From Ranitomeya imitator (lineage: Eukaryota): a DNA stretch of 64,000 nucleotides. Where the stretch lies: positions 612,374,001 through 612,438,000 of the forward strand of contig NC_091283.1 in NCBI RefSeq assembly GCF_032444005.1. Direction: 5' to 3'. The stretch's first letter is position 1, and the number at the start of each line of letters is the position of its first letter. A program made the position numbers and the translations under genes. Below the pieces are notes generated by a model. The model made no database searches, had not been told where the DNA came from, and saw only the letters and a program-made list of their open reading frames with translations. Shown here in pieces: positions 18,663 to 60,750 of this stretch.

Positions 18663-19563
18663 AGGGAACCTGTCACCCCATTTTTTCAGTAGGAGATAAA
18701 AATACCGTTAAATAGGGCCTGAGCTGTGCTTTACAATAGGGTATTTTTTGTCCCCTGATTCCCTACCTATGCTGCCGAAATACCTTACAAAAGTGTCCTT
18801 TTTCGCCTGTCAATCAGGCTGGTCAGGTCAGATGGGCGTGGTCACAGCGCTGTTTCTCCCCCACATCTTGCTTATGTTCCCGTTGGTGGCGTAGTGCTTC
18901 TCGCATGCGCAAGTGCCGAATGCACTGCGCAGCTGTAGAAAAAGAGCGCGCTCGCCGCTATTCAGCGGTTTCTCGGTGGGCGCGGCCATCTTCCTGAGGC
19001 CGCGCTTGCGCAGATGGAGTCTCCTGCTTCCCGGGGCTTCAGGAAAATGGCCGCGGGATGCCGCGCGTGCGCAGATGGACATCGCGGCGGCCATTTTCCT
19101 GAAGCCGAGTTCGAATCTCGGCTTCAGGAAAATGGCCGCCGCGATGTCCATCTGCGCACGCGCGGCATCCCACGGCCATTTTCCTGAAGCCCCGGGAAGC
19201 AGGAGACTCCATCTGCGCACGCGCGGCCTCAGGAAGATGGCCGCGCCCACCGAGAAACCGCTGAATAGCGGCGAGTGCGCTCTTTTTCTACAGCTGCGCA
19301 GTGCATTCGGCACTTGCGCATGCGAGAAGCACTACGCCACCAACGGAAGCATAAGCAAGATGTGGGGGAGAAACAACGCTGTGACCACGCCCATCTGACC
19401 TGACCAGCCTGATTGACAGGCGAAAAATGCCACTTTTGTAAGGTATTTCGGCAGCATAGGTAGGGAATCAGGGGACAAAAAATACCCTATTGTAAAGCAC
19501 AGCTCAGGCCCTATTTAACGGTATTTTTATCTCCTACTGAAAAAACGAGGTGACAGGTTCCCT
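18663..19563. mobile_element. Fold-back Kolobok/T2 MITE (901 bp palindrome) inserted in the Tc1 left TIR
   Basis: TTAA duplicated at 18659-18662 and 19564-19567, whereas the right Tc1 TIR has a single TTAA at the equivalent site. Centre at about 19113. Confidence 0.93.
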
Positions 19564-27489: not shown

Positions 27490-28697
27490 TTAAAGGACTG
27501 AAACCTATCAACTCTCCAGGGTCATAATAGGTTGATAGGGATGCCTTTGCATATTTGGGCAGATGTAGAAACTATGAAAATAAGCTATATTTAAAAGCAC
27601 CTGAAAGGATCATAAGGGTGGTACCAATTCTCAAGTCACACTGACCATTCTCCCTCGCAACTTCTGCAGCATCTAGCGCAGGGGTGCATAACTTTTTTTG
27701 GTCCAAGGGCAACATTGTTTTACTGAACCAATCCTGGAGCTGCACTAAAAGTTAAGGTTTTACCTTCAGACATTTATGACATATCAAAAGTTTATACCAT
27801 AAATATCTGATAGGTACTCATAGGTTTTTATTGTAGTTTTCAGTTAGTGAGATTCTCGTGCTTCGGGGCGGCCTGTGGGGGGAGGGGGTCTTTATGTGGT
27901 GCTCTGTTCAGCTATTCATAATGTATACTGCTGACTGGTCACTGGTCCTTCAGTAACCTGCCCCCTATTTTATATACTGCATATGATATTGTTGGCTTAC
28001 ACAAATTACCTAGTAGAGGTATGAAGAGAAGAGGGAAAACGTAGATAGAGATCTTTCTTTTATTGAAACAATATTTAAAACACATGTAATATAAAAGACA
28101 GCAAGATGGAAAAATTGAGACCTCCAAAAAAGTCAGGGTGTGACATATACAGCTGGTAAATTTTAGGTCTATCTGCACATTGGAAAGTATTCCCCTAAAG
28201 GGATCATCATCAATAATTTTGGTTAAGTTTACTTCTCTTTGGTGAGGACTGCAAAGGGTATTAACGAGACATTTTCATGTCCACCCATCCCATCAAGTCC
28301 ACATGATCCCTTTACATTACATATGTTTTAAATATTGTTTCAATAAAAGAAAAATCTTTTTATCTACTTTTTCTCTCGTCACTTCATACCTCTACTAGGT
28401 AATTTGTGTAAGTATCTATGATTGAAGTGCTATTTATTGCCAATTTAAACTTTGGATTATGGGATTAATATGATATTGTTGGCTTAAAAAAAATTCAACA
28501 TGCGCAGTGGCAGCTATCGCTTCCAGGTGCTACTGCGCAAGAACCATGTCCATTTTGCTGCAGCCAATTTTTTTTTTTTCTGGCAGAATGGCGCTGCCGG
28601 TTGCCTTTTCCTGAAGGTAAATTGTTTTTTTCAAAGCCATTAATATATGCAGTATGTAAAATAGGGGGCTGGTCAGTGAAGGATCAGTGACCTGTCA

Positions 28698-30049
28698 TCT
28701 ACTATATAATTGTCTACGGGTCACTTCCGTCCGTCTGTCTGTCACAGATATTCATTGGTCGCAGCCTCTGTCTGTCATGGAAATCCAAGTCGCTGATTGG
28801 TCGCGGCAAAACAGCCACGACCAATCAGCGATGGGCACTGTCTGGTAGAAAATGGCCGCTCCTTCCTCCCCGCAGTCAGTGCCCGGCGCCCGCATACTCC
28901 CCTCCGGTCAGCGCTCACACAGGGTTAATGGCAGCGTTATATACTCCCCGTCCGTCGGCCCTTCAGATCCACAACAGGCCTTTCCCGCTCGCGATGCTCC
29001 GGTAACCGGTCCATGCTGCGATCTCGCGAGACCGCAATGCACTCTTCAGACCGGAGCGCACGAGGACCATTGGTGTTGTGGACCTGGTGGTTAGGAGCAC
29101 CCGGAATGACCTGATGGTTAAACTCACACAGGACAAGCTCTGGGAAGTGGGAGCTCTGCTGACCGCAACCCCTAATCCTATCACACAACTAGAAATAGCC
29201 GTGGAGCGTACCTAACACGACCTAGACGCCTCTTCACAGCCTAAGAGCTAACTAGCCCTAAAGATAGAAAATAAAGCCTACCTTACCTCAGAGAAATTCC
29301 CCAAAGGAAAAGGCAGCCCCCCACATATATTGACTGTGAGTTAAGATGAAAATCACAAACACAGAAATGAAACAGGTTTCAGCAAAGGGAGGCCAGACTT
29401 ACTAAACAGACTGAGGATAGGAAAGGTATCTTTGCGGTCAGCACAAAAAACTACAAAAGACCACGCAGAGTGTGCAAAAAGACCTCCGCACCGACTCACT
29501 GTGCGGAGGTGCCACTCTGCATCCCAGAGCTACCAGCTAGCAAGGCAAAATCATGATAGCCAACTGGACAACGAAACAATGAACAAATAATAACTAGCAG
29601 GGACTTAGCTTCTGCTGGAGTATACAGGTCACCAGAAAGATCCAAGAGCGAACTGAACCAGTACAAGAACATTGACAGCTGGCATGGAGTAACGATCTGA
29701 GTGGAGTTAAATAGAACAGCCAGCCAAAGAATAAACTACGTCACCTGTGGAAGGAACCTCAGAAGCAACAGCTCCACTCACAGCCACCAGAGGGAGTCCA
29801 TGAACAGAACTCGCCGAAGTACCATTCATGACCACAGGAGGGAGTTCGAAAACAGAATTCACAACACATTGGTAACTGGCCGCTTCGATCGGGAGGCTCC
29901 AAAAGACGAGTATGTAAGTTTTTTATTTTAATTCTTTTTTTTTTTAACAGGGATATGGTGCATACAACGTGACTGTGCTGTATACTATGTGGTTGGGCAA
30001 TATACTACGTGGACATGCATATTCTAAAATACCCGATGCGTTAGAATCA
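28698..30049 (+). mobile_element. Non-autonomous Helitron, 3' CTAG end deleted
   Basis: A|TCTACTATATAATTGTCTA start is the same as the 40802 copy. It runs to GCGTTAGAATC and then jumps into host TIR sequence. Confidence 0.8.
29074..29866 (-). mobile_element. Solo LTR (793 bp)
   Basis: TGTTGTGG...TTCACAACA termini with a 6-bp TSD CATTGG (29068-29073, 29867-29872). The reverse complement begins TGTTGTGAATTCTG like the 21537 copy. Confidence 0.9.
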
Positions 30050-32395
30050 GAGCACCACATAAAGACCCCCCACAGGCCACCCCAGAGCACGAGAATCTCA
30101 TTTACTCTAAACTGCAAAAACAGATATTTCATCAACCAAGGTATCATTGTGATCAGTCTAATGGTGTCAACCTGATACTGTCTGTAGTTTAATTGGAAAA
30201 ATCCTGCTCACAGGTCCCCTTTAAAAAGGAAGATGTCATGCACGCCCACGGCACTTTACAATAGTTTATGGGCTTCGTACTCACGGTCTAATGTCTCACA
30301 ACTTCCATAAACTACAGTGGAGCCGCAGACACTGAAGGTCAGCAGCCGGTCTACTGCCTACTCTTTTCTGAAAAGTTGAACTGGACTAGAGACCCCATTG
30401 CCCTGATGTAGGAGGCATCCAGAGAGGTCTACCCAGCGCACCATTGGAACTTACCAGTCCTAGCTCCTCAGCTGCGGACTACTACTCTTCTGTCTGAAGC
30501 TGCTCAATTATAATCACACAAGTATTTTTCTGTCCATATGGATGCGGGGCATCACAGGCTGCAGGTTGTATACTCCTGATCTAGCGCACGCGCAGTGACG
30601 TGTACTGGCCTCTCGCTGCACATGTGCCAAATGCCATCTGAGCTGCCAGGCCCGTCCATGAACTACGTTCTCCCGATGATAAGAGATTCATTTTAAAAGG
30701 TGATCGGCAAGAAGGAAAAAAAAATAAATCACTTTTTGGCTTTGTAAAATTGGAGAAACTGTTAGATAATATTGTATTGGAAGTTGCAAGACCACAACCT
30801 GGGCTGCTCTAGTCATAGGTTCCCATGATCATGTCCAAGTTTTCTTATCAGACAATTACACTACTTCTGTCAGCTTGCCTTCTCTCAATCCATACTAGTG
30901 CCATCTCTTCCCCAGGTAAGAAGCACACATTCCCATATGTCCGTCTCACATTGCACCATTGTCCAGTTTTGAAGTTCCAGCTCATTTTAATAATTTTTAT
31001 TTATGTAACACATTCGGCACCACTATAGAAGAGCGTGCAATCTTTGAAGAAAAAGTTAACACAAAAGGTAAAAAGTGCTGGTAGAGTCTGGTCCAGCCAT
31101 CTTTATAACAGAATTCATGTAAAGCTGCATGAACCAAGCACCTGTCAGAATCTGTATATGTCCAGATACAAAGGTACAGCGCACAGATGACGGTCTGTTT
31201 TTAACATTGCAAAGTATAGCGGAAGCTTTCTCATTTCTTTCTTATCCATACCGGAAAATGACTGATGACACCTGTACCGGTTTTTCATGTGCGTGTTTTA
31301 TATAGACATGTGAATGAGGCCTAAGAAAAATTAGCAAGTTCCAGTGAAAACCCTAGGTTAAAAAGGGGTTTCCAGTGAAAACAACTCATGGGCTTTACAT
31401 AACTGTTAAGCAATGAGTGTCTTACCGCTGGTTCCAATCTTGATAGGCAAAACGGATTTTTTTTTTCCTATTACAGAATGGAGTGGTAGGTCGGATGCCA
31501 GAGTGCCGCTCCATCCATTCTTTATTGGGCTTGCAGAAAAAGTCAAACACAGCACTCTGCAGTATCTTGGTCAAATGAATGGAGCACAGGTAGAGCATAA
31601 TCATTGCCAATCCATTCTAACAGGGCTAAAATTGTCCCATTCTGCCAATCAGTACAGGTCTCAGTAGTCACACTCTCATTAGCAAGAAGAAAAAAAAATT
31701 GAAAACGTTTTAAATGTAGAGGAGTTTGTTGAACACTGGCCAAAAGTTTCAGAGAGAACAACGGAAAAAGACACCACCCAAAACTAGATGGGTTCCTGTG
31801 TGCTGTAGACAAGAAGTTACATTCAACAGTACAAGGTTAGGAGAAGTCTCCTTCAGACAGGAGCAGAACAGACAGCAACTGGTTCAGTGATTTATGACAA
31901 ATGTGAAGTGGGAGATATATACTATTCACATATGAGCTGTTCATGGGAGGGAAAAAGGACGGAGGCGAATGGCGTACACTGCAGGTAAGAAAGACAGGCA
32001 AGTTTGAAAGAAAACATCTGTTAAAATGAAGATGAAATTAGTAAATATGGAAAGCCAATTTTGCAGCATATTTCTCATGTTAACAAGTTTGAGTATCTTG
32101 CCTAGAATACTTCTCTTAACTGCAAGATCATTGATACATACAGCACCCGGACAAAGATGATCGCTGCCCTCCTGTCTCCTCCAAGCTAAATCTCATTTTA
32201 GGCTCCTTCTGCACAAGTCACACTACATGAAAAGTCCTCACCCACTCTTCTAGCCACTCTAATACATCAACATATATCCCACTCCTCAACAGGTGCTATC
32301 ATTACAACCAATGTCATTCACTAGAATTGTCAGTGGTTTTAATGTTATTCAGAGTACATGCCTTATGAATAATGTCTAGAAAGTAAAACACTTTT

Positions 32396-32496
32396 ATTCG
32401 GACTCCCATGACAGCACACGAGAGAGGGGATCCGCCCTTAAGGAACAGGAAACCTACAGATACAAAAGGGCGGCACCTCTCCCCATGCATCAGTTG
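32396..32496 (+). repeat. DIRS left ITR
   Basis: Inverted match to 37857-37948; its start pairs with the first half of the ICR. Confidence 0.93.
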
Positions 32497-33099
32497 GTTT
32501 CCTGTTCCTGAAGGGACTGGATGCCTATAGATACTACAGGAGTCCAGGCCGGCCGGACCGATTCTGGTGGCGAGAGGGTCTCCCACTTCGGCCGGTGCGG
32601 GTACCTGAAGTAGTCACGGTGGCCCTGGCAGGGCGGCACGGCGGTGACTAGGCAGCGAGGAGCGGTCGCCAGGGGGTGTCCGGTCTCCGGGGCCAGCGTC
32701 TGGTAAGTCGCCCTTCCCGTGGGCTGTGGGTCTCTCTGGAGCAGGGGGGAGCGCGGCGGCATCTGGGGGGCGCCGATCGGATCGTAGCTGGCCGGCCTCG
32801 GCGTTCCACGAGAGCTGCAGCGCTGACAGGAAGCGCTGTAAGCTGTGGTGACGTCGGGGGGCGGAGCCAGCGACGTCTTCCGGATCGGTAAGCTCCTGCG
32901 CATGCGCGGGGGCTCCAAGATGGCGGCGCCCACCGGAGATCATGCCGCAATCCCTCCGGAGCGATGATTGATTCCCCACAGCTGCGGGGGGGCGGGAAAA
33001 TTAAACAAGCAAGCTGGGCAAGGTGCGCTGACCGAAGGAGGGGCCTTATAAGGCGGCTCCAGCAGCATGTTCCCGGGTTCTGGCTCCAATTTACTGAAA

Positions 33100-33258
33100 A
33101 TGGATTCAGATCAGGATCAGCAGGTTGTGCTGCTGGAACAAGCATCCCAGAGACCCAAGGAGAAGGAACATGAAAAAAGGAGCGATGGTTCGGGCCGCAG
33201 AAGCTCCTCCAGACAGGGGTCTGGAGGGTCAGTCAAAAAGGATCCCCCTCGTGCTTCG
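33100..33258 (+). CDS. Putative DIRS gag exon 1 (donor at 33259 or 33271)
   Basis: ATG 33100 (MDSDQDQQ...DPPRAS). Phase-0 donors TCG|GTATTT or GGT|GTGAGC; the unspliced frame stops at 33288. Confidence 0.55.
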
Positions 33259-33344
33259 GTATTTCTGGGTGTGAGCAGCCACTGGTAAGTGATCTTCGAG
33301 AAAGTTCACTTAGTGACTAGTCTCCCCTCATGTGTTTTATGCAG

Positions 33345-33452
33345 GGAAGGAAAAACGTCAGTAAGGCGAAGCATAGGGAATGTGCCATCTGCGGGGTTCC
33401 CTTGCCTGACTCACACCCTAAAAAACTATGTGACCCCTGTATCCAGCAGACG
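33345..33452 (+). CDS. Putative DIRS gag exon 2 (Cys4 zinc-finger-like)
   Basis: TTTTATGCAG|GGA...ACG|GTGAGG. Encodes GRKNVSKAKHRECAICGVPLPDSHPKKLCDPCIQQT (CxxC-x12-CxxC); phase 0 at both ends. Confidence 0.7.
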
Positions 33453-33527
33453 GTGAGGTTCTGGAAGGAGGGGACGGGGTATAGCATGTAGATTTTACAC
33501 TCTAGTCTACCTTACTTATCCCCGTAG

Positions 33528-34667
33528 GTAGCCGAAGAATCCTCCTCTATTACGGCCAGTCTCAAGGAGATGATTAGAATGGAGGTTAAAGAGTCCTTTA
33601 AAAACCTTTCACAGTCAGGAGGTTCTAGGCAGAGAACTGAGTGGGCATCGGATTCGTCTGTGGAAAAGGACAAGTCCGAAGAATCAGACAATTCAGCAGC
33701 ATCATCCTCCTCTTCGGAAGAAGACGCTGCTCGGTTTTGCCTACCCCTAGAAAGGATAGACAAATTGGTAAAGGCGGTCAGAGGCACAATGGGTATATCG
33801 GAACCCAAGCCTCAACTATCCAAAGAACAAATGATGTTCAGTGGATTGGAGCAAAAGAAGCGCAGAGTGTTTCCTTTAAATGAGAAAATACAAGATCTTA
33901 TTAATAGGGAATGGAGGAAACCTGAGAGAAAAGGCTCCTTACCACCTGCGCAAAAACGCCGATACCCTTTTGATGACCCAGCAGTAGGTAACTGGGAGAA
34001 AGCACCCAAGCTGGATGCAGCAATTGCCAAGGTAGCTAAACGATCTTCTCTCCCATTTGAAGATATGGGAACACTTAAAGACCCCCTGGATAGGAAAGTG
34101 GATACCTTCCTGAAGGGAACCTGGGAGATGGCAGCTGGCTCCTTAAGACCTGCGGTAGCTTCAACCTGCACGGCAAGGTCAATGATGGTCTGGCTGGACC
34201 AGTTGGAGACCCAATTAAAACAAGGGGCCTCTAGAGAGTCCATTCTCTCAGCATTACCTGTAATCCAGGAGGGGGCGGCTTTTTTATCAGACGCCTCAAT
34301 TGACTCCGTAAAGTTGGCAGCTAGAGCAGCAGGACTTTCTAATGCTGCAAGGAGAGCCCTATGGCTGAAATGCTGGCCGGGGGATATGCAGGCAAAAGCG
34401 AAGCTCTGCGCTATCCCTTGTAAAGGCGAATATTTATTTGGGCCTACCCTGGATGAACTCCTGGAGAAAGCAGGAGATGATAAGAAAAAGTTTCCCAACC
34501 TGTTCAATCCATACCGTCGTCCCTTCAACAAAAGAAGGTTCAACCGGGGAGGAAAGCGAGCCTTTTCACCAGGGAGAGATCGTCCCAGATGGGAGGATAG
34601 GCGAAAGCGAGGTACAGGTCTCATGTTTCGCCGTAACCAGACGGAAAATAAAAAACAAGACCAATGA
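33528..34667 (+). CDS. DIRS gag-like ORF1 (main exon, 379 aa)
   Basis: Acceptor CCCCGTAG|GTA GCC GAA is in frame with track ORF 33570. Typical vertebrate DIRS ORF1 features: acidic Ser-rich linker, WEKAPKLDAAIAK, RRALWLKCW, YLFGPTLD, basic C-terminus. Confidence 0.88.
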   Translation, partial: VAEESSSITASLKEMIRMEVKESFKNLSQSGGSRQRTEWASDSSVEKDKSEESDNSAASSSSSEEDAARFCLPLERIDKLVKAVRGTMGISEPKPQLSKEQMMFSGLEQKKRRVFPLNEKIQDLINREWRKPERKGSLPPAQKRRYPFDDPAVGNWEKAPKLDAAIAKVAKRSSLPFEDMGTLKDPLDRKVDTFLKGTWEMAAGSLRPAVASTCTARSMMVWLDQLETQLKQGASRESILSALPVIQEGAAFLSDASIDSVKLAARAAGLSNAARRALWLKCWPGDMQAKAKLCAIPCKGEYLFGPTLDELLEKAGDDKKKFPNLFNPYRRPFNKRRFNRGGKRAFSPGRDRPRWEDRRKRGTGLMFRRNQTENKKQDQ

Positions 34668-36560
34668 CTGGCAATTCCAGTGGGAGGGAGACTATTGCAT
34701 TTCTCGGCAGAGTGGTCGAAAATCACAAACAGCGTTTGGATAAAAGACACTGTTTCCCATGGTCTCAAGCTGGAATTTGTTCATATTCCACAGGACAAAT
34801 TTAGGTTAACACCCTGGCGCTCATCTCCCACTGAACAATTCGCCCTAGAAGAGGAAGTGAGGACTCTTTGTTCCAAAAATGTTTTGGTAGAAGTGCCGTA
34901 TTCTCATGCAGGGGAAGGGTTTTACTCTCCCCTGTTCCTAATCCAGAAGCCTGATAAATCTTACAGGACCATTATAAATCTTAAGGGTCTCAATAAGTTT
35001 TTGGTGAAACATACTTTCAAAATGGAGTCCATCAATTCGGCAATAAAAATGCTTTTCAACAACTGTTTCATGGTAGTAGTGGATTTGAAAGATGCCTACT
35101 ATCATGTACCCATTCATGCTGATTTCCAACGATACCTGAGGGTAGCGATACTAATGGGGGGTAGGATTCGACATTTTCAATTCAGAGCGCTCCCCTTTGG
35201 GATCACCTCGGCACCTAGGGTGTTTACTAAAATAATTGCGGAAGTTATGGCGCATTTAAGAGAGTCAAATATCCTTATAGTCCCCTACTTAGACGATTTC
35301 CTCATTGTAGGTAACTCGGTAGATCATTGTCTGTCACAATGGGAGATTGCTAAAACCAAACTAGAACGGTTGGGTTGGATCATAAACTTTGAAAAATCTA
35401 AATTACAGCCCCTAAATGTTCAAAAATTCCTGGGGTTAATGTTGAATTCAGTGACACAGCAGTGTCTCCTCCCTATAGAGAAAATGGACCAAATTCAGAG
35501 TTTTGTATTAAGAGCAATCAATACACCTTCCATGACACTTAGGCAAGCAATGTCTCTACTTGGGTCACTCACATCTTGCATCCCAGCAGTTAAGTGGGCT
35601 CAGTTCCACACCAGGTCCCTACAAAATGAAGTCCTGTTCCATGACAGAGCCTTAGGAGGCGCATTGAATGGAAAATTGACATTGAGGCCGATAACATTGA
35701 ATTCCCTTAGATGGTGGCTAGATAAACAAAATTTATCAGCAGGGGTTCCCTGGATGATAGATGTCACCCACGTGATAACCACGGATGCCAGCTCTTCAGG
35801 GTGGGGAGCCTATATGGGAGACATGGTGGTCCAGGGACAGTGGGAACCCTTCACAACATTTTCATCAAATCAAAGAGAGTTGTTGGCGGTTGAACTGGCT
35901 GTTAAAAAATTCCTCGTATATCTGCAGGGCCAGCACGTCAGAATTCTGTCGGACAACAGAGTGGCGGTCGCTTACATAAACCGGCAAGGGGGAACTCGTT
36001 CCGAAACTTTAATGCAGATCACGGATCGGTTGTTCCAGGTGGCAGAGCTCAATTTTCTATCTTTGACAGCTCTTCACATCAAAGGAAAAGAAAATGTGGC
36101 AGCAGATTTCCTCAGCCGAAATGTGTTAAAACAGGGAGAGTGGTCTCTCAACGAGGACATTTTCAATCTTGTCGTCCGCAGATGGGGTCAACCAGTGGTG
36201 GATCTATTCGCCACCAGAAACAACAGAAAAGTAAAACTTTTTTGCTCCCTAAATCCCAGGGAGAATCCCCTGGCGGTAGACGCGTTTCTCATAAAATGGG
36301 ATTTTCCACTAGCCTATGCTTTCCCACCACTGAACCTGATACCTCTAGTGGTGAGGAAAATCAGGGAGGATCGAGCGAAAGTCATCCTTATCGCCCCCTT
36401 TTGGCCCAGAAGAACCTGGTTTGCCTGGCTCAAGACAATGTCTGTAGCGGTCCCCTGGGTACTGCCAGAGATCCCGAACTTGCTTTCGCAGGGACCGATC
36501 TCCCATCCACAAGTGACGGGGCTCCATTTGACGGCATGGTGTTTGAACGGTCACTATTAA
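34668..36560 (+). CDS. DIRS pol: reverse transcriptase, RNase H and DAM-methyltransferase-like domain
   Basis: RT: YSPLFLIQK, VDLKDAYYH, ALPFGITSAPRVF, YLDD. RNase H: TTDASSSGWG, RELLAV, SDN, AADFLSR. MT-like: VDLFAT, AYAFPP. No internal stops. Confidence 0.95.
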   Translation: MAIPVGGRLLHFSAEWSKITNSVWIKDTVSHGLKLEFVHIPQDKFRLTPWRSSPTEQFALEEEVRTLCSKNVLVEVPYSHAGEGFYSPLFLIQKPDKSYRTIINLKGLNKFLVKHTFKMESINSAIKMLFNNCFMVVVDLKDAYYHVPIHADFQRYLRVAILMGGRIRHFQFRALPFGITSAPRVFTKIIAEVMAHLRESNILIVPYLDDFLIVGNSVDHCLSQWEIAKTKLERLGWIINFEKSKLQPLNVQKFLGLMLNSVTQQCLLPIEKMDQIQSFVLRAINTPSMTLRQAMSLLGSLTSCIPAVKWAQFHTRSLQNEVLFHDRALGGALNGKLTLRPITLNSLRWWLDKQNLSAGVPWMIDVTHVITTDASSSGWGAYMGDMVVQGQWEPFTTFSSNQRELLAVELAVKKFLVYLQGQHVRILSDNRVAVAYINRQGGTRSETLMQITDRLFQVAELNFLSLTALHIKGKENVAADFLSRNVLKQGEWSLNEDIFNLVVRRWGQPVVDLFATRNNRKVKLFCSLNPRENPLAVDAFLIKWDFPLAYAFPPLNLIPLVVRKIREDRAKVILIAPFWPRRTWFAWLKTMSVAVPWVLPEIPNLLSQGPISHPQVTGLHLTAWCLNGHY

Positions 36561-37570
36561 TGGGAAAAGGCTTCTCTCCAAACTTGGTGGAGACGCTCCT
36601 AAAGAGTAGAAAGCAAATAACTACGAAAATCTACTCTAGGACTTGGAGAAAGTTCTTGTCTTGTTCAAAGTTTAATATCCAAGACGGGGTGCCAGTACAA
36701 CAAATCCTAGAGTTCCTACAAAAGGGGTTCGAGTTGAAACTCTCTCCTAGTACCCTTAGGGTACAGGTCTCAGCTTTAGGTGCCCTGTTTTCCTGTAATA
36801 TAGCGAATAACTACTGGATAGCGAGGTTTATGAAGGCAGTTAGTAGATCTACACCACTGCATAAAGACAGAACAGTTCCATGGGATTTAAATTTAGTTCT
36901 GTCCTCTCTAACTAAACCCCCCTTTGAACCTCTGCAGGAGGCCTCGATCAAAATGTTGACACTTAAGACAGCCTTCCTGATCGCCATAACCTCAGCTCGC
37001 AGGATAGGGGATATACAGGCACTTTCCAGAGCTCCTCCATACACTGAAATCTTGTCAGACAGAGTAGTCCTTAGACCAGACCCAGCATATCTGCCAAAGG
37101 TGGCGACACGGTTCCATAGATCACAGGAGATAGTTTTGCCGTCCTTTATTCCTAATCCCTCTAATCCTAAAGAGCAGGAGCTTCATACGTTAGACGTCAG
37201 GAGATCTCTTCTTCAGTATATTTCAGCTACTGATAATTGGAAGAAGGATGGGGCACTGCTTCTTTCCTTCCAAGGTCCAAAGAAAGGATTTAGAGTATCG
37301 AAATATTTACTGGCTAAATGGATTAGGGAAACTATCTCTCTAGCTTATACAGCAGGTGGGGGGCCAGCTCCGCAGAACCTAAAGGCACATTCCACCCGGG
37401 CCATGGCGTCATCCTGGGCAGAAAGATCTGGAGTGTCAGTGGAGCAGATATGTAAGGCGGCCACATGGTCATCCCCTTCCACTTTCTTTAAACACTATCG
37501 GTTGGATTTGGGGTCCTCCTCTGATCTTTCCTTTGGGTTAAGGGTGCTACAATCTATAGTCCCTCCCTAA
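36140..37570 (+). CDS. DIRS tyrosine recombinase (YR); functional start likely near 36492-36560
   Basis: Catalytic set TSARRIGD (R), AHSTRA (HxxR), ATW...FFKHY (W/Y). The first 421 nt overlap pol in another frame. Confidence 0.93.
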   Translation: MVSQRGHFQSCRPQMGSTSGGSIRHQKQQKSKTFLLPKSQGESPGGRRVSHKMGFSTSLCFPTTEPDTSSGEENQGGSSESHPYRPLLAQKNLVCLAQDNVCSGPLGTARDPELAFAGTDLPSTSDGAPFDGMVFERSLLMGKGFSPNLVETLLKSRKQITTKIYSRTWRKFLSCSKFNIQDGVPVQQILEFLQKGFELKLSPSTLRVQVSALGALFSCNIANNYWIARFMKAVSRSTPLHKDRTVPWDLNLVLSSLTKPPFEPLQEASIKMLTLKTAFLIAITSARRIGDIQALSRAPPYTEILSDRVVLRPDPAYLPKVATRFHRSQEIVLPSFIPNPSNPKEQELHTLDVRRSLLQYISATDNWKKDGALLLSFQGPKKGFRVSKYLLAKWIRETISLAYTAGGGPAPQNLKAHSTRAMASSWAERSGVSVEQICKAATWSSPSTFFKHYRLDLGSSSDLSFGLRVLQSIVPP

Positions 37571-37591
37571 GGTAGCTTACATCTCTGTAAA

Positions 37592-37675
37592 TCTCTCGTG
37601 TGCTGTCATGGGAGTCCGAATAAAGCATTAAGCTACTTACTGGTAGCGGCATTTTTCGGAGGCCCATGACAGCAC
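37592..37675 (+). repeat. DIRS internal complementary region (ICR)
   Basis: TCTCTCGTGTGCTGTCATGGGAGTCCGAAT-AAA-GCATTAAGCTACTTACTGGTAGCGGCATTTTTCGGAGGCCCATGACAGCAC is the reverse complement of the left end plus the right end. Confidence 0.93.
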
Positions 37676-37856
37676 CCTTAGTTCCCTCCCTATTCACGTG
37701 GGGGTAGCACTTCCTGATATGTATATAGCGTAATATGTAAATCTCACGTATGGTGTCTTATTACAATAATGGGTTATTTTGTTTCAAATGTATATAATGT
37801 ATATATTGTATATTTGTGTACCACTAACCGCGGCAGTCCTCTCAGGCTCTGAAATA

Positions 37857-37986
37857 CAACTGATGCATGGGGAGAGGTGCCGCCCTTTTGTATCTGTAGG
37901 TTTCCTGTTCCTTAAGGGCGGATCCCCTCTCTCGTGTGCTGTCATGGGCCTCCGAAAAATGCCGCTACCAGTAAGTAGCTTAATGC
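37857..37986 (+). repeat. DIRS right ITR with 3' extension
   Basis: 92-bp inverted core plus a 38-bp extension that pairs with the second half of the ICR. Confidence 0.93.
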
Positions 37987-38594
37987 TTTTTCCGTTCATT
38001 GTGATTTTTTGCTTTGAACCTTACATCAGTATTACAAATTGGGTTACACAACAGTTTCCTATAAAGATGTAGTCATTATTAGTACAATAGAATATCGCCA
38101 TCTACTGGTGAGAATATACAATAGCTGCTGAACTATTTCTGCACTGAATCCCTAGATGTTTGGAAGATAATGAGTTAACAACCAGTACACGCTCCAGCAG
38201 GCAAGTGTTAACAAGGTAGTTATGAGGGTGACAACTACATTTCTCCAAGGATGTTGGCTTTGTCAGCAGCATAGAAATAGTAATGGTGTGTTTCCTACCA
38301 GATCTAGGGTGGTGCTGGTGAGAAGCTGGGGAAATTTATAACCAGGCATTAGCTTTTAGACGGCAGGTTTAATAAACACGTTTTGAAAGGTTTGTGGTTT
38401 CCAGAAAATTTGAACATATCTGGTTATGTTTTTTTCTTCTTGAAAAGCTATGGTAAAAAGTTATGTATTGGGAATATAGTCATAGGTCTTGACGAAAACG
38501 AGAAGATCAGTCTTGGTGGTATCTTTAATGGTACATTGAATTGAGGACAGTCTGGTCCAGATGATCAGAACGTGGTCATGGCACAAGTGCCCAT

Positions 38595-40284: not shown

Positions 40285-40801
40285 GCTGATCTTCACAGGA
40301 GGGCAAAGATTATAGCCATCGGGGGGGGAGGGGTCTTCAGAAAAACACATCAGAACACCCATCGAAGAGGGCCATTGTGAGCCCGTGAGTGCAGGCATCA
40401 GCACGCAGAATTTGAATGTCGAAACACGTTGATACGACAGTCAATGATTAATTGCAGCATTTTTTCTGATTAAACGGCAGCAGAGTAAACTCCAGCCACT
40501 GCAGTCTTTGGGCTAATGCAGACGTCCATGAAAATTGGTCTGAACATGGACCGTTAATGCACAGACTGGCAGTGGGTCTCCCGACCTGGGCGTGGCAGCT
40601 TTATTCATGAATGTCTATGAGGCTGTCACCCTGGGGTCAGGAGAGTCGCAGCCAGTTCATGAATTGCAGGGCTGATTTGCAAGCATGTCTGAATGAGCCC
40701 TTAAGCAGATGTTGGCTATGGAAAACCTCCATAATCTGCAGAGTATGAAGCAGGCTCATTTCCTGAGCCCGCAACAATATGGGGACCCAGCAAAGGATGT
40801 A

Positions 40802-41955
40802 TCTACTATATAATTGTCTATGGGTCACTTCCGTCTGTCTGTCACGGTTATTCATTCGCTGATTGGTCTCGCCAGCTGCCTGTCATGGCTGCCGCGACCA
40901 ATCAGCGACGGGCACAGTCCGGAAGAAAATGGCCGCTCCTTACTCCCCGCAGTCAGTGCCTGTCGCCCGCATACTCCCCTCCGGTCACTGCTAACACAGG
41001 GTTAATGCCGGCGGTAACGGACCGCGTTATGCCGCGGGTCACTCACTCCGTTACCGCCGCTATTAACCCTGTGTGTCCCCAACTTTTTACTACTGACGCT
41101 GCCTATGCGGCATCAATAGTAAAAAATGTAATGTTAAAAATAATTAAAAAAACAAAAACCTGCTATACTCACCCTCCGTAGTCGCTCGTGCCGGCCGCCA
41201 TCTTCCGTTGCAGGTTCCGGTGGCAAAGATGGTATGGGAGAAGGACCTGCCATGACGTCACAGTCATGTGACCGCGACGTCATCACAGGGCCTGCGCGAG
41301 AAGGACCTGCCATGACGTCACGGTCATGTGACCGCGATGTCATCACAGGTCCTGCGCTCATACCAACCCTGGGACCCGAAGCTGCCGTGGACTACAAGGG
41401 GCCCTCGGAAAGGCAAGTATATGTTTATTTTTTAAACTGTGACAAACTTAGCTGGGCAATATACTACGTGGCTCTGTGCTGTATACTACATGGCTCTGTG
41501 CTGTATACTACGTCGCTGTGCAATATACTACGTAACTGGGCAATATACTACGTGGCTCTGTGCTGTATACTACGTCACTGGGCAATATACTACGTGGCTG
41601 CGCAATATACTACGTAACTGGGCAATATACCGGTACTACGTCACTGGGCAATATACTACGTGGTTGGGCAATATACTACGTGGCTGGGCAATATACTACG
41701 TGGCTGGGCAATATACTACGTGGCTGGGCAATATACTACGTGGCTGGGCAATATACTACGTGGCTGGGCAATATACTACGTGGTTGGGCAATATACTACG
41801 TGGTTGGGCAATATACTACATGGTTGGGCAATATACTATGTTGCTGGGCAATATACTACGTGGGCTGTGCAATATACTACGTGGGCTGTGCAATATACTA
41901 CGTGGACATGCATATTCTAGAATACCCGATGCGTTAGAATCAGGCCACCATCTAG
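40802..41955 (+). mobile_element. Non-autonomous Helitron with 20-bp minisatellite
   Basis: A|TCTACTATATAA...CCCGATGCGTTAGAATCAGG hairpin...CATCTAG|T; no TSD. Confidence 0.88.
41440..41905. repeat. 20-bp minisatellite (TGGGCAATATACTACGTGGC)n
   Basis: About 20 variable copies; explains the GQYTTW/GNILRG ORFs. Confidence 0.9.
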
Positions 41956-43409: not shown

Positions 43410-45015
43410 CAGTGGGGCAAAAAAGTATTTAGTCAGTCAGCAATAGTGCAAGTTCCACCACTTAAAAAGATGAGAGGCGTCTGTAATTTACATCATATGT
43501 AGACCTCAACTATGGGAGACAAAATGAGAAAAAAAAATCCAGAAAATCACATTGTCTGTTTTTTTAACATTTTATTTGCATATTATGGTGGAAAATAAGT
43601 ATTTGGTCAGAAACAAACAATCAAGATTTCTGGCTCTCACAGACCTGTAACTTCTTCTTTAAGAGTCTCCTCTTTCCTCCACTCATTACCTGTAGTAATG
43701 GCACCTGTTTAAACTTGTTATCAGTATAAAAAGACACCTGTGCACACCCTCAAACAGTCTGACTCCAAACTCCACTATGGTGAAGACCAAAGAGCTGTCA
43801 AAGGACACCAGAAACAAAATTGTAGCCCTGCACCAGGCTGGGAAGACTGAATCTGCAATAGCCAACCAGCTTGGAGTGAAGAAATCAACAGTGGGAGCAA
43901 TAATTAGAAAATGGAAGACATACAAGACCACTGATAATCTCCCTTGATCTGGGGCTCCACGCTAAATCCCACCCCGTGCGGTCAGAATGATCACAAGAAC
44001 GGTGAGCAAAAATCCCAGAACCACGCGGGGGGACCTAGTGAATGAACTGCAGAGAGCTGGGACCAATGTAACAAGGCCTACCATAAGTAACACACTACGC
44101 CACCATGGACTCAAATCCTGCAGTGCCAGACGTGTCCCACTGCTTAAGCCAGTACATGTCCGGGCCCGTCTGAAGTTTGCTAGAGAGCATTTGGATGATC
44201 CAGAGGAGTTTGGGGAGAATGTCCTATGGTCTGATGAAACCAAACTGGAACTGTTTGGTAGAAACACAACTTGTCGTGTTTGGAGGAAATAGAATACTAA
44301 GTTGCATCCATCAAACACCATACCTACTGTAAAGCATGGTGGTGGAAACATCATGCTTTGGGGCTGTTTCTCTGCAAAGGGGCCAGGACGACTGATCCGG
44401 GTACCTGAAAGAATGAATGGGGCCATGTATCGTGAGATTTTGAGTGCAAACCTCCTTCCATCAGCAAGGGCATTGAAGATGAAACGTGGCTGGGTCTTTC
44501 AACATGACAATGATCCAAAGCACACCGCCAGGGCAACGAAGGAGTGGCTTCGTAAGAAGCATTTCAAGGTCCTGGAGTGGCCTAGCCAGTCTCCAGATCT
44601 CAACCCTATAGAAAACCTTTGGAGGGAGTTGAAAGTCCGTGTTGCCAAGCGAAAAGCCAAAAACATCACTGCTCTAGAGGAGATCTGCATGGAGGAATGG
44701 GCCAACATACCAACAACAGTGTGTGGCAACCTTGTGAAGACTTACAGAAAACGTTTGACCTCTGTCATTGCCAACAAAGGATATATTACAAAGTATTGAG
44801 ATGAAATTTTGTTTCTGACCAAATACTTATTTTCCACCATAATATGCAAATAAAATGTTAAAAAAACAGACAATGTGATTTTCTGGATTTTTTTTTCTCA
44901 GTTTGTCTCCCATAGTTGAGGTCTACCTATGATGTACATTACAGACGCCTCTCATCTTTTTAAGTGGTGGAACTTGCACTATTGCTGACTGACTAAATAC
45001 TTTTTTGCCCCACTG
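43410..45015 (+). mobile_element. Full-length Tc1 transposon (1606 bp)
   Basis: TA TSDs (43408-43409, 45016-45017) and 208-bp TIRs differing at about 3 positions. Confidence 0.96.
43777..44799 (+). pseudogene. Tc1 DD34E transposase, 340 codons, three nonsense mutations and no frameshift
   Basis: ATG 43777. In-frame stops at TGA 43945, TAA 43963 and TAG 44290. Motifs [15 protein letters not shown] and SPDLNPIE, with 34 residues between the second D and E. Confidence 0.93.
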
Positions 45016-56788: not shown

Positions 56789-57712
56789 TTAGAGTATGTG
56801 CAAATGTTTAGTAAGAAAAAAAAATCTGCAAAAACCAGAGCATTGGCAGGAAAAACACTGCGTAAAATATGCGCGATTTGATGCATTTTTCATTTCCATT
56901 TTTTTCAATTGGTGAAAAATCCTGTAAAAATGCAGAAAGAATTGACAGAGATAAACCCTTAGGTAAAACAGGTTACTTGCATTTTTTTCATTGCGTTTAA
57001 TGCATTTATAGCATTTTTTAGTCTCTTTGGTGTGTCATGCTTTAAATAAAGCCGCTTTGTTTTTTGATACTTCCCGGTTTTTGGCTTTGGTACAGTCATG
57101 TGCGGATTACATGCGTTCATACTGTGTTACTGCAGCGGATACGCACTAAAAATGCACGTGCGTTCTTTACCTGCAGATTTTCCACATCTAATGCAAGTCT
57201 ATTGGAAAAATCTGCACAGAAAACTCAGCATACCCGTAAGAGAAACTGAAATGTTGCGGATTTCAACCAGGTCAGTTTACGTGGAGTAAGAAAAAAAAAG
57301 AAAAGCACAGCAGACCAGAGATCTCTATGAATCCCATCCAGTTTGCTGGTACTGTAAGACGTTGCGTTATTATGTGCAATGTCAAGAATCATCATGGGAG
57401 CTTATCCTCACACAGCCAATACCGAGTCCAACTCATGCGAACGGAGCTGGATCTAATCGCAGCAGTTTAACCTCTTCGATATAATTGATGATAGCGGCAT
57501 TACTGTGATTATGAGAAGCCTTACTTGCATTTTTGCATGGGCTTTTGATGCGTTTTTCCCATTCATTAGTATGTGTAACATCTGCAGCAAATATGCAGAA
57601 AGAATTGACAAGCTGCAGATTTAAACCTGCAATGAAAAAACGTGTGCACAGACCCTTTATGGCCTCTGGTATATTTTCCCTCTACAGCCACCAACATCAA
57701 TAAGTTCTACGT

Positions 57713-59300
57713 ATTTATCTGGAGGGTTATGAGCAGGTGTGTGGTTTCGGCTGCCCTTTATCTGGAGGGTATGCGCAGGTGTATGGTCTCGGCTGCCCTT
57801 TATCTGGTGGGTATGCGCAGGTGTATGGTCTCGGCTGCTGTTTATCTGGAGGGTATGAGCAGGTGTGTGGTCTCGGCTGCCATTTATCTGGTGGGTATGA
57901 GCAGGTGTGTGGTCCCGGCTGCCCTTTATCTGGTGGGTATGAGCAGGTGTGTGGTCTCGGCTGCCATTTATCTGGTGGGTATGAGCAGGTGTGTGGTCTC
58001 GGCTGCCGTTTATCTGGTGGGTATGAGCAGGAGTGTGGTCTCGGCTGCCGTTTATCTGGTGGGTATGAGCAGGTGTGTGGTCTCGGCTGCCGTTTATCTG
58101 GAGGGTATGAGCAGGTGTGTGGTCCCGGCTGCCATTTATCTGGTGGGTATGAGCAGGTGTGTGGTCTCGGCTGCCGTTTATCTGGTGGGTATGAGCAGGA
58201 GTGTGGTCTCGGCTACCGTTTATCTGGTGGGTATGAGCAGGTGTGTGGTCTCGGCTGCCGTTTATCTGGTGGGTATGAGCAGGTGTGTGGTCTCGGCTGC
58301 CGTTTATCTGGTGGGTATGAGCAGGCGTGTGGTCTTGGCTGCCATTTATCTGGTGGGTATGAGCAGGCGTGTGGTCTCGGCTGCCATTTATCTGGTGGGT
58401 ATGAGCAGGTGTGTGGTCCCGGCTGATGTTTATCTGGTGGGTATGAGCAGGTGTGTGGTCCCGGCTGCCATTTATCTGGTGGGTATGAGCAGGTGTGTGG
58501 TCTTGGCTGATGTTTATCTGGTGGGTATGAGCAGGTGTGTGGTCCCGGCTGCCATTTATCTGGTGGGTATGAGCAGGTGTGTGGTCTCGGCTGCCATTTA
58601 TCTGGTGGGTATGAGCAGGTGTGTGGTCCCGGCTGCCCTTTATCTGGTGGGTATGAGCAGGTGTGTGGTCTCGGCTGCCATTTATCTGGTGGGTATGAGC
58701 AGGTGTGTGGTCTCGGCTGCCGTTTATCTGGTGGGTATGAGCAGGAGTGTGGTCTCGGCTGCCGTTTATCTGGTGGGTATGAGCAGGTGTGTGGTCTCGG
58801 CTGCCGTTTATCTGGAGGGTATGAGCAGGTGTGTGGTCCCGGCTGCCATTTATCTGGTGGGTATGAGCAGGTGTGTGGTCTCGGCTGCCGTTTATCTGGT
58901 GGGTATGAGCAGGTGTGTGGTCTCGGCTGCCGTTTATCTGGTGGGTATGAGCAGGCGTGTGGTCTCGGCTGCCATTTATCTGGTGGGTATGAGCAGGCGT
59001 GTGGTCTCGGCTGCCATTTATCTGGTGGGTATGAGCAGGTGTGTGGTCCCGGCTGATGTTTATCTGGTGGGTATGAGCAGGTGTGTGGTCCCGGCTGCCA
59101 TTTATCTGGTGGGTATGAGCAGGTGTGTGGTCTTGGCTGATGTTTATCTGGTGGGTATGAGCAGGTGTGTGGTCCCGGCTGCCATTTATCTGGTGGGTAT
59201 GAGCAGGTGTGTGGTCTTGGCTGCCATTTATCTGGTGGGTATGAGCAGGTGTGTGGTCTCGGCTGCCATTTATCTGGTGGGTATGAGCAGGTGTGTGGTC
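57713..59300. repeat. 42-bp minisatellite, about 38 copies, in CENPX intron 2
   Basis: Unit GTTTATCTGGTGGGTATGAGCAGGTGTGTGGTCTCGGCTGCC; 14-aa periodicity in the ORF track. Confidence 0.95.
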
Positions 59301-59305
59301 CTTAC

Positions 59306-59357
59306 TTTTAGTCTTCTCTTCTTCTAGGTGCATGTGCAGCAGTTTGGAGACTAGGCT
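59306..59357 (-). CDS. CENPX: CENPX exon 2 (52 nt)
   Basis: TTTCTTACAG|...|GTAAGG. Encodes SLVSKLLHMHLEEEKTK versus human ELVSRLLHLHFKDDKTK. Confidence 0.94.
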
Positions 59358-59889
59358 CTGTAAGAAAAAGAGTGGCCATTAACCCCATCAGGACCAGCCC
59401 CTATTTATGCGGAGTTATTAGTCCCAGCTTTATAGACGGATATTGTTGGGAAGTGCTTGTAAAAAACATATGCTGTTTTTTGAGACCTTAACATTTGTTT
59501 TGTTTATGGCTCATCTAGGAGACCGACCACCGCTGCTATCTAGCCTACAAGTTTTTCTCCTAGGCAACATAAACAAAACAAGTGATGATACCTCTTTTTC
59601 CCCTGTGTCAGGGCTTGTTATCCTTGGTATCATATGTTGGGTCATTTTGTGAGAGGTCTGAATGACGCTTTCATTAGTGGGCACCTCCATCTACACCAAA
59701 GTTTGCGGCGCGCAACGTGCGCCGTGGCAAATTTTAGGCCACGCCTCTGACCACACCCATTCATAGCTAGTCACACTCATATCCACGTCCCAACCACACC
59801 CATTTAGCACTGCTGATCACACTGTTTCATAAAGAATAATTATAAACAAAAAAATATGGCCACACAGTGCTCCATACTGTATAATCGCT

Positions 59890-60750
59890 CCGTACACCCC
59901 ATACACACACGCGGCTCCGCTCCGTCCACCCCATGCACACACGCGGCTCCGCTCCGTCCACCCCATGCACACACGCGGCTCCGCTCCGTCCACCCCATGC
60001 ACACACGCGGCTCCGCTCCGTCCACCCCATGCACACACGCGGCTCCGCTCCGTCCACCCCATGCACACACGCGGCTCCGCTCCGTCCACCCCATGCACAC
60101 ACGCGGCTCCGCTCCGTCCACCCCATGCACACACGCGGCTCCGCTCCGTCCACCCCATGCACACACGCCGCTCCGCTCCGTCCACCCCATGCACACACGC
60201 CGCTCCGCTCCGTCCACCCCATGCACACACGCCGCTCCGCTCCGTCCACCCCATGCACACACGCGGCTCCGCTCCGTCCACCCCATGCACACACGCGGCT
60301 CCGCTCCGTCCACCCCATGCACACACGCGGCTCCGCTCCGTCCACCCCATGCACACACGCGGCTCCGCTCCGTCCACCCCATGCACACACGCGGCTCCGC
60401 TCCGTCCACCCCATGCACACACGCGGCTCCGCTCCGTCCACCCCATGCACACACGCGGCTCCGCTCCGTCCACCCCATGCACACACGCGGCTCCGCTCCG
60501 TCCACCCCATGCACACACGCGGCTCCGCTCCGTCCACCCCATGCACACACGCGGCTCCGCTCCGTCCACCCCATGCACACACGCGGCTCCGCTCCGTCCA
60601 CCCCATGCACACACGCGGCTCCGCTCCGTCCACCCCATGCACACACGCGGCTCCGCTCCGTCCACCCCATGCACACACGCGGCTCCGCTCCGTCCACCCC
60701 ATGCACACACGCGGCTCCGCTCCGTCCACCCCATGCACACACGCGGCTCT
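59890..60750. repeat. 32-bp CpG-rich minisatellite, about 27 copies, in CENPX intron 1
   Basis: Unit GCGGCTCCGCTCCGTCCACCCCATGCACACAC; nearly invariant. Confidence 0.95.

What the first reader, a model, noticed from the sequence alone, without database searches (positions are those of the whole stretch)
33100..33570. Retrotransposon gag gene apparently split by two small spliceosomal introns, with a zinc-finger micro-exon
Seen: upstream of the DIRS gag ORF, a 108-nt segment (33345-33452) is bounded by TTTTATGCAG and GTGAGG and encodes CxxC-x12-CxxC. A 75-nt GT-AG intron (33453-33527, containing an in-frame TAG) joins it in phase 0 to the main gag. A 74- or 86-nt intron (33271 or 33259 to 33344) joins it in phase 0 to an ATG exon starting at 33100. 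The spliced Gag would be about 468-472 aa. Established: retrotransposons replicate through RNA, so introns are normally lost, and intron-bearing retroelements are rare. Inference: an unspliced genomic RNA must be reverse-transcribed while spliced mRNA makes Gag, a retrovirus-like division of labour.
Basis: partly seen in the sequence, partly recalled or inferred. Interest (0 to 1): 0.78.

Follow-up and report, generated by a model that had tools for sequence, protein, structure and literature searches.

The report
Frog retrotransposon gag split by introns
A young jumping gene of a poison frog that copies itself through RNA appears to keep two short introns inside its structural gene, so it would need a spliced RNA to make the protein and an unspliced RNA to copy itself; comparison with relatives supports this strongly, but the spliced RNA has not been seen.

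Summary
The stretch is the 5' part of gag in an intact, young DIRS1-like retrotransposon (about 32393-37989) of a dendrobatid frog. The CxxC-x12-CxxC segment is a real N-terminal Gag domain (83 families among retrieved relatives) and is as conserved against a sister family (26/36 aa) as the Gag body (156/225). Cutting exactly 33453-33527 restores the spacing of relatives that are contiguous there; of 19 such cuts only this one is GT..AG. For intron 1, homology picks donor 33259 (86 nt), not 33271; unspliced relatives show a pyrimidine-tract signature at the same place, and it shifts frame between copies. No splice joint appeared in contigs of 4 runs (not on record as RNA), which bridge both introns unspliced, so splicing is inferred, not shown. 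The 'retrovirus-like' label is loose: Gag would come from spliced RNA, as in copia, and the introns hold no coding sequence, so their retention needs explaining. I found no paper on introns in vertebrate DIRS gag (10 searches). This scan has noted spliced DIRS/Ngaro elements before on other DNA (protists, coral, sponge), none in frogs.

The parts
32393..37989 (+). DIRS1-like retrotransposon, full length, TTT at both ends, all three long frames open
   Evidence: single copy in the window; near-identical copies in 4 of 4 runs laid
32393..32519 (+). left inverted terminal repeat
   Evidence: 91% complementary to 37834-37959 over 126 nt
32703..32981 (+). possible 279-nt leader intron (strong donor CTG|GTAAGT at 32703, weak acceptor 32981), GC 0.68, holds 4 upstream ATGs; speculative
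   Evidence: no joint
33047..33051 (+). TATAA 53 nt before ATG 33100, after a GC-rich stretch; candidate internal promoter for a gag mRNA; speculative
   Evidence: sequence
33100..33258 (+). gag exon 1 (53 aa, polar, low complexity)
   Evidence: 23/49 aa identical to sister-family models P0046/P0051, junction in register; a 9-nt in-frame deletion in one sister contig
33259..33344 (+). intron 1, 86 nt, GT..AG, phase 0, in-frame stop; holds alternative donors 33271 and 33285 and ATGs 33330, 33339
   Evidence: Val codon (GTN) follows the homologous point in read-through models of two sister families, P0040 and P0033/P0050
33345..33452 (+). gag exon 2: basic lead plus CxxC-x12-CxxC putative zinc finger (hairpin plus helix)
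   Evidence: 26/36 aa identical to P0046/P0051; motif in 159 of 298 retrieved proteins, 83 families; model pLDDT 82-89 over this domain in relative P0005
33453..33527 (+). intron 2, 75 nt, GT..AG, phase 0, in-frame TAG
   Evidence: only GT..AG cut of 19 that restore spacing; 1-nt deletion at 33493 in one sister contig
33528..34667 (+). gag exon 3, LAP2alpha-type DIRS Gag body (379 aa)
   Evidence: PF11560 E 5.5e-18; profile hits PDB 2v0x E 2.2e-31
34668..36560 (+). pol frame (RT, RNase H, methyltransferase-like tail), same frame as gag behind TGA-CTG; first ATG only at 35022
   Evidence: PF00078 E 3.8e-21, PF17917 E 1.9e-7
35906..37570 (+). tyrosine recombinase frame overlapping pol
   Evidence: PF00589 weak, E 0.093; R, HxxR and Y motifs present (motif meaning recalled)
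37592..37675 (+). internal complementary region with circular junction TTT
   Evidence: 100% complementary to 32393-32425 and 97% to 37936-37994
37834..37989 (+). right inverted terminal repeat and 3' extension

Best explanation
An active-looking frog DIRS1-like retrotransposon makes its full Gag (468 aa) from a spliced mRNA: exon 1 (33100-33258), a zinc-finger exon (33345-33452) and the LAP2alpha-type body (33528-34667). Both introns carry in-frame stops, so unspliced RNA cannot make Gag (62 aa, or 101 aa with intron 2 kept). Because new copies inherit the introns, the RNA that is reverse-transcribed must be unspliced. Most likely mechanism (inferred): two RNA pools. A gag mRNA, perhaps from an internal TATA promoter at about 33047 and so lacking the left terminal repeat needed for copying, is spliced and translated; a full-length RNA from the left repeat, with 8 upstream ATGs and a weak first donor, stays unspliced and is copied. 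Intron 1 is old in frog DIRS; intron 2 is limited to some families (gained here or lost elsewhere). Shown: anatomy, frames, conservation. Inferred: splicing itself. Speculative: the promoter and the reason the introns persist.
For: Exon 2 is as conserved as the Gag body against a sister family (26/36 vs 156/225 aa), exon 1 23/49. RefSeq models XP_069625301.1 and XP_069583237.1 join the same three pieces at the same points, while model P0040 of that family reads on with VLYF after the donor. EE falls 7-8 residues after the last Cys only after the 75-nt cut, as in 36 of 68 families including 6 ORFs called on raw contigs. Those 6 of 6 have a Phe/Leu-rich stretch ending in Gln 11-16 residues before Cys1, against 2 of 63 others (criterion set after seeing them; with two contig-called ORFs recognised later, which fail the strict test, 6 of 8 against 2 of 61); all 8 have 0.29-0.59 hydrophobic residues there against mean 0.08, max 0.23 in 18 gene models. 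That stretch changes frame or length between copies of one cluster while the downstream part is kept (P0035/P0094, P0138/P0314, P0136/P0302, P0195/P0346/P0350). P0127 against P0120, and Xenopus laevis isoforms P0206/P0343/P0344, differ exactly upstream of the finger exon. An engineered 74-nt intron is lost when Dictyostelium DIRS-1 transposes (PMC7192593, passages), so inherited introns imply an unspliced template.
Against: No joint at either intron in the contigs of 4 runs; contigs bridge intron 1 (X4 record 10, 33193-33493) and intron 2 (X11 record 2, 33381-33746) unspliced. Such contigs drop rare forms, so this leaves splicing unshown rather than refuted. Donor 33259 (TCG|GTATTT) is weak and the strong donor 33285 joined to 33344 is out of frame. 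No gene model of this very family with the three-exon join was found; one model of it, P0049, uses the 33285-type donor and skips the finger. I could not see exon coordinates or RNA support of the NCBI models, which may be partly ab initio. Several sister models start at the Met homologous to 33570 (P0001, P0002, P0003). No DNA of diverged sister families was available, so GT/AG conservation there is read from protein sequence only.
Confidence: 0.75

Rival explanations
1. Only intron 2 is needed, or exon 1 is joined differently: translation starts at ATG 33330/33339 just before the finger, or the strong donor 33285 is joined to the AG at 33349 (65 nt, in frame), or donor 33271 is used.
For: ATGs 33330 and 33339 are in frame with exon 2; some relatives have a Met shortly before the Gln (P0115, P0135, P0010); 33285 is the best donor in the element and 33285-33349 is in frame.
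Against: Exon 1 is conserved in frame and aligns without a gap at 33258|33345 to P0046/P0051; ATG 33330 is changed in sister contigs of 3 of 4 runs (33332 G>A); ATG 33339 sits in a T-run, a poor start context (recalled rule).
Confidence: 0.12
2. No functional splicing: the finger is a relic cut off by a 75-nt insertion, Gag (365 aa) starts at ATG 33570, and the spliced gene models are annotation artefacts.
For: No joints; models P0001-P0003 and several contig-called ORFs begin after the finger.
Against: A cut-off relic should decay, yet it is 72% identical with all four Cys where the body is 69%; a random insertion bounded by GT..AG at the homologous junction, with the second-best acceptor of the region, is unlikely.
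Confidence: 0.08
3. The hydrophobic stretch before the finger in relatives is coding (a signal or membrane leader on a longer Gag form), and this family bypasses its stops by read-through rather than splicing.
For: Some contig-called ORFs are open from a Met through that stretch (P0020, P0035, P0138).
Against: The stretch shifts frame between copies; here exon 1 and exon 2 lie in different frames and intron 2 has two in-frame stops.
Confidence: 0.05

Closest known systems
DIRS1-like (DIRS-like) tyrosine-recombinase retrotransposons of amphibians (Xenopus families, PMC9210276; overview PMC3266345)
   Same: Inverted termini of about 120 bp, internal complementary region, TTT ends, LAP2alpha-type gag, RT/RNase H, overlapping recombinase frame.
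   Different: Described with gag as one ORF; the words intron and splic* occur 0 times in either paper. Here gag has three exons and an N-terminal four-cysteine domain that these papers do not mention (zinc: 0 hits).
Ty1/copia spliced subgenomic Gag mRNA (Arabidopsis EVD, PMC5580714 abstract; BARE, PMC3735527 listing; Drosophila copia recalled)
   Same: Gag made from a spliced RNA, genome copied from unspliced RNA.
   Different: There the splice lies at the gag-protease junction and removes or bypasses pol, so a spliced copy is defective. Here the introns are short, non-coding and inside the 5' part of gag, so a spliced copy would keep all frames.
Penelope-like elements that retain introns (PMC8557442, passages)
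   Same: Retroelements that pass spliceosomal introns on; a 75-bp 5'-UTR intron overlaps the internal promoter of Penelope.
   Different: Other RT class and integration enzyme (GIY-YIG); introns mostly in the leader, not splitting gag around a domain exon.
Retroviral spliced and unspliced RNAs (PMC5035971, abstract in listing)
   Same: Unspliced RNA is the template for copying.
   Different: Retroviral Gag is made from unspliced RNA; the logic is reversed here. No envelope, integrase or LTRs.
Pat1-like zinc-finger Gag (PMC4157794, passages) and mammalian LAP2alpha/ZNF451 domains derived from DIRS gag (PMC4495291, passages)
   Same: [quoted passage not shown]
   Different: Pat1 elements have split direct repeats; whether their finger is of the same type was not tested. 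The domesticated LAP2alpha exon is a single exon.

Membership tests
DIRS1-like retrotransposon | Inverted terminal repeats | tested here: met
   126 nt, 91%
DIRS1-like retrotransposon | Internal complementary region matching both ends, 3-bp circular junction | tested here: met
   37592-37675, TTT junction; feature described in PMC3266345
DIRS1-like retrotransposon | gag, then RT and RNase H | tested here: met
   PF11560, PF00078, PF17917
DIRS1-like retrotransposon | Tyrosine recombinase frame overlapping pol | tested here: met
   554-aa open frame, PF00589 below cut-off (E 0.093), R/HxxR/Y motifs present
DIRS1-like retrotransposon | Methyltransferase-like domain after RNase H | tested here: inconclusive
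   No Pfam hit; DLFA and AFPP motifs at pol 512 and 551 (motif meaning recalled)
DIRS1-like retrotransposon | RT groups with DIRS1 in a tree | not tested
   No tree was built
U2 spliceosomal introns | GT..AG ends, pyrimidine tract, branch-like motif, length above about 60 nt | tested here: met
   (branch-like CTCAT at -18 in intron 1, TTTAC at -34 and CTTAC at -17 in intron 2); donor 33259 weak
U2 spliceosomal introns | Removal restores the homologous protein; exons conserved, introns not | tested here: met
   protein level only
U2 spliceosomal introns | Junction present in RNA | tested here: inconclusive
   No joint in contigs of 4 runs; contigs show presence, not absence
Ty1/copia-type subgenomic Gag splicing | Splice at the gag-protease junction that removes or bypasses pol | tested here: not met
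   Introns lie in the first 430 nt of gag and hold no pol sequence
Retrovirus-type splicing | Gag translated from unspliced RNA | tested here: not met
   Unspliced frame from ATG 33100 stops after 62 aa
Penelope-like intron-retaining elements | PLE-type RT with GIY-YIG nuclease | tested here: not met
   RT-RNase H plus recombinase and inverted termini
Treble-clef zinc finger | Hairpin plus helix with four Cys binding zinc | tested here: inconclusive
   Model shows hairpin plus helix; best structural matches only Z 2.0-2.2 (LIM, Ada2, ribosomal proteins; e.g. 6cw3_E Z 2.1, rmsd 2.0, 30 aligned); Pfam DZR_2 and DUF2116 below cut-off; zinc binding not testable

The most novel reading that the evidence does not exclude
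Frog DIRS1-like retrotransposons as a group depend on the host spliceosome for Gag, have kept a dispensable-looking short intron before the finger exon across hyloid, ranid and pipid frogs despite copying through RNA, gain or lose further introns by family, and in several families also reach Pol by a splice in the 3' end of gag. This would be a vertebrate system, with many young copies, for watching intron retention, loss and gain through reverse transcription, with thousands of such Gag genes now hidden in annotations as 'LAP2-like'.
Probability: 0.45. Interest if true: 0.8.

Novelty: new variant of a known kind. Interest (0 to 1): 0.62.

Why it matters
Short non-coding introns should be lost one way whenever a spliced RNA is reverse-transcribed, and a DIRS element does lose an engineered intron (PMC7192593). 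A family that keeps them must sort its RNA or depend on the intron, which makes the sorting mechanism testable in a vertebrate. It also corrects the picture of DIRS Gag: the protein is about 100 aa longer than the single open frame suggests and begins with a conserved four-cysteine domain. Families with and without intron 2 give a natural test of intron gain or loss by reverse transcription. If splicing is limited to germ line or embryo, it would be a control point for an abundant element class in very large frog genomes.

Tried and rejected
No whole genome is held for this window, so no copy-by-copy DNA comparison or search for intronless copies was possible. Run search: no RNA holder listed (17 runs, none on record as RNA); 4 of 17 were laid. 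The two joints listed there (32932-33420, CC..CT; 37101-37447, GG..CA) are not GT-AG, each in one contig, and were rejected as splices. X9 has no cover at 32654-33184 (3 of 30 bins), which I do not interpret. DNA of relatives: genome contigs 0 of 78 candidates, viral contigs 0 of 1; metagenome contigs gave 68 distant loci (24-42% identity in pol), 0 of 68 with a hit to the Gag profile, so they were dropped. A search with the finger region for longer proteins found none (1 candidate, weak evidence). Clusters of the 10 nearest partial models were singletons. RNA folding over the two introns is not unusual (z -1.41). Foldseek on the Gag model gave no match at E 0.001; best was LAP2alpha 2v0x; no capsid-like fold was listed, which does not exclude one. 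A shared-donor scheme (33285 to pol and recombinase), suggested by earlier notes, found no in-frame pol acceptor with a pyrimidine tract and one for the recombinase frame (36069), without RNA support. Literature: 10 searches and term look-ups in 14 papers plus one abstract and outline found no report of introns in vertebrate DIRS gag; intron had 0 hits in PMC9210276, PMC4495291, PMC3266345, PMC4157794, PMC3783388, PMC3537659. The Poulter and Butler 2015 review is not held; the Goodwin and Poulter papers and Repbase entries were not seen and may mention introns (uncertain recall of introns in some fungal or algal recombinase elements). Supplements were not read; the family tables of PMC9210276 could bear on ORF1 structure.

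Full report
What is there. The finding lies in a full-length DIRS1-like retrotransposon, about 32393-37989 on the + strand. It has 126-nt inverted termini (91%), an internal complementary region matching both ends, and TTT ends. Three long frames are open: gag body 33528-34667 (Pfam LAP2alpha, E 5.5e-18), pol 34668-36560 (RT E 3.8e-21, RNase H) and a recombinase frame 35906-37570. The nearest named relatives are NCBI proteins of Ranitomeya, Dendrobates and Phyllobates, up to 99% identical over part of Gag, so the host is a dendrobatid frog. Contigs from 4 of 4 runs laid match with few differences over hundreds of bases, so the family is young and multi-copy.

Observation. With a crude splice matrix (frequencies recalled) the two acceptors rank 1 and 2 of 114 AG sites in 32400-33700, and donor 33453 ranks 3 of 72 GT sites. 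The two upstream donors are weak (19 and 15 of 72).

The cysteine segment is part of Gag. 21 of the first 50 hits carry a CxxC..CxxC motif. Among 298 proteins retrieved by three searches and a cluster look-up (redundant set), 159 carry it behind a basic stretch; they fall into 83 families, 69 with 12-residue spacing. Against sister-family RefSeq models P0051 and P0046, exon 2 is 26/36 identical, the body 156/225 (P0051) and exon 1 23/49, with both junctions in register. AlphaFold2 on an alignment of 17 relatives folds this domain with pLDDT 82-89 as a hairpin plus a helix that runs across the position of intron 2. Its fold class stays open (best Z 2.2).

Intron 2. In 36 of 68 families two acidic residues sit 7-8 positions after the last Cys, including 6 ORFs called directly on assembled reads, which cannot have been spliced by a gene model. 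This copy fits that spacing only after a 75-nt cut; of 19 such cuts one is GT..AG, 33453-33527. So intron 2 is an insertion relative to those families, with exact splice ends and in-frame stops. One sister contig has a 1-nt deletion inside it. Whether sister families share it could not be settled from protein sequence.

Intron 1. Of 22 cuts of 86 nt that restore the alignment to P0051, one is GT..AG, 33259-33344. Read-through models of two sister families continue with Val (GTN) at the same point and then diverge (P0040; P0033, P0050). All 6 contig-called ORFs first examined have a Phe/Leu-rich stretch ending in Gln (a CAG codon would fit) 11-16 residues before Cys1, against 2 of 63 others (Fisher p 2e-7; criterion set after seeing the data). 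Two contig-called ORFs recognised later (P0195, P0274) were among the 63 and fail the strict test, giving 6 of 8 against 2 of 61, but they show the same hydrophobic bias (0.41 against mean 0.08 in 18 models). This upstream stretch changes frame or length among copies in four clusters while the rest is kept, as a non-coding T-run would. One cluster holds both a read-through (P0127) and a spliced-type model (P0120), and Xenopus laevis isoforms differ just upstream of the finger exon. The apparent phase differs in the Aquarana and Xenopus families, so these introns need not all be homologous.

Against. Laying contigs of 4 of 17 listed runs gave no joint at either intron; single contigs bridge intron 1 and intron 2 unspliced. 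These contigs drop rare forms and may come from DNA or from copies inside host transcripts, so the test is inconclusive, but splicing is not shown. No three-exon model of this exact family was found, and one model of it (P0049) uses the out-of-frame-type donor. I could not see exon structures or RNA support of NCBI models. Some sister models start after the finger.

How it most likely works. Unspliced RNA gives 62 aa from ATG 33100, and 101 aa if only intron 2 is kept, so full Gag needs both splices. Dictyostelium DIRS-1 loses an engineered 74-nt intron on transposition (PMC7192593, passages), so a family that inherits introns is copied from unspliced RNA. Unlike copia or retroviruses, a spliced copy here would keep every frame, so loss should ratchet unless something prevents it. 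My best guess is two RNA pools: a gag mRNA from an internal promoter (TATAA at 33047 after a GC-rich stretch) that lacks the left terminal repeat, and a full-length RNA with 8 upstream ATGs that is poorly spliced and is copied. An AATAAA at 34647, just before the gag stop, could end such a gag mRNA, but 3 such hexamers occur in 5.8 kb. Alternatives are a packaging or promoter signal inside intron 1, as for the Penelope intron (PMC8557442, passages). These steps are inference.

A related lead. In 8 relative models Gag is joined to Pol at PC[EQR]G, skipping about 31-32 Gag codons and continuing in the +1 frame; 4 of 8 exceed a shuffled null for +1-frame compatibility with a Gag tail (0.93, 0.69, 0.69, 0.64 against about 0.5). 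This may be a further conserved splice or a gene-finder's way round a frameshift. In this copy that donor reads GC, the matching AG is absent, and pol follows gag in frame behind TGA-CTG; a GC donor at 34426 joined to the AG at 34680 would fuse in frame at the conserved VGGRL start of pol. No joint was seen.

Comparison with what is known. The element meets the tested features of DIRS1-like retrotransposons. Papers on Xenopus DIRS (PMC9210276: one section part and passages), DIRS1 overview (PMC3266345, passages), LAP2alpha origin (PMC4495291, passages), nematode and fungal elements (PMC4157794, PMC3783388, passages) and ALOG elements (PMC3537659, passages) contain no hit for intron. PMC8547959, PMC12477816, PMC9341512, PMC3212892, PMC5890265 and PMC12822217 (passages) showed nothing on introns within DIRS. 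Ten searches found no report, but key subscription papers and Repbase were not available. Spliced Gag mRNA is known in Ty1/copia (PMC5580714, abstract), intron retention in Penelope-like elements. Earlier notes of this scan describe spliced DIRS/Ngaro elements in protists, coral and sponge; they are unchecked, gave leads, and none matched this sequence.

Verdict. Real feature; splicing likely (about 0.87 for intron 2 in some form, 0.75 for the exact three-exon model with sorting of RNA); new variant of a known kind; interest 0.62, higher once junction reads are shown.

Noticed in passing
window 34416-34680; relatives P0180, P0034, P0037, P0157, P0027, P0048, P0170, P0191: Relative gene models join Gag to Pol at one fixed place in the 3' end of gag and continue in the +1 frame; this copy has a GC donor there, lacks the matching AG, and has pol in frame with gag behind TGA-CTG (read-through-like context, recalled). 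Pol has no ATG before 35022.
   Followed up: partly
window 34369-34743: The +1 frame over the gag tail is open for 124 codons, as in relatives where it leads into pol, but here it ends shortly after the gag stop; contigs of several runs show the same arrangement.
   Followed up: partly
window 32703 and 33285: Two identical strong donors, CTG|GTAAGT, the best in the element; 33285 joined to AG 36069 would put exon 1 in frame with the recombinase frame; 32703 may define a leader intron.
   Followed up: partly
window 33047 and 34647: TATAA 53 nt before the gag ATG and AATAAA 18 nt before the gag stop, framing a possible gag-only transcript.
   Followed up: no
P0015, P0042, P0047, P0049, P0107, P0160, P0285 and others: Many frog gene models are chimeras of host genes and DIRS gag pieces, and whole Gag proteins are annotated as 'lamina-associated polypeptide 2-like'; the acceptors around the finger exon may exonise into host transcripts.
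   Followed up: no
L001-L068: 68 metagenome loci with distant DIRS-like pol (24-42% identity), none with this Gag type.
   Followed up: partly
window 18831-19395: Near-identical 167-codon open frames on opposite strands, pointing to a long palindromic or inverted-repeat element.
   Followed up: no
window 28697-30057 and 40801-41950; 41446-41903; 57636-61011; 43965-44796: A dispersed repeat present twice about 12 kb apart with a 20-nt tandem array; long minisatellite arrays; a fragment that looks like a Tc1-type transposase (recalled resemblance).
   Followed up: no
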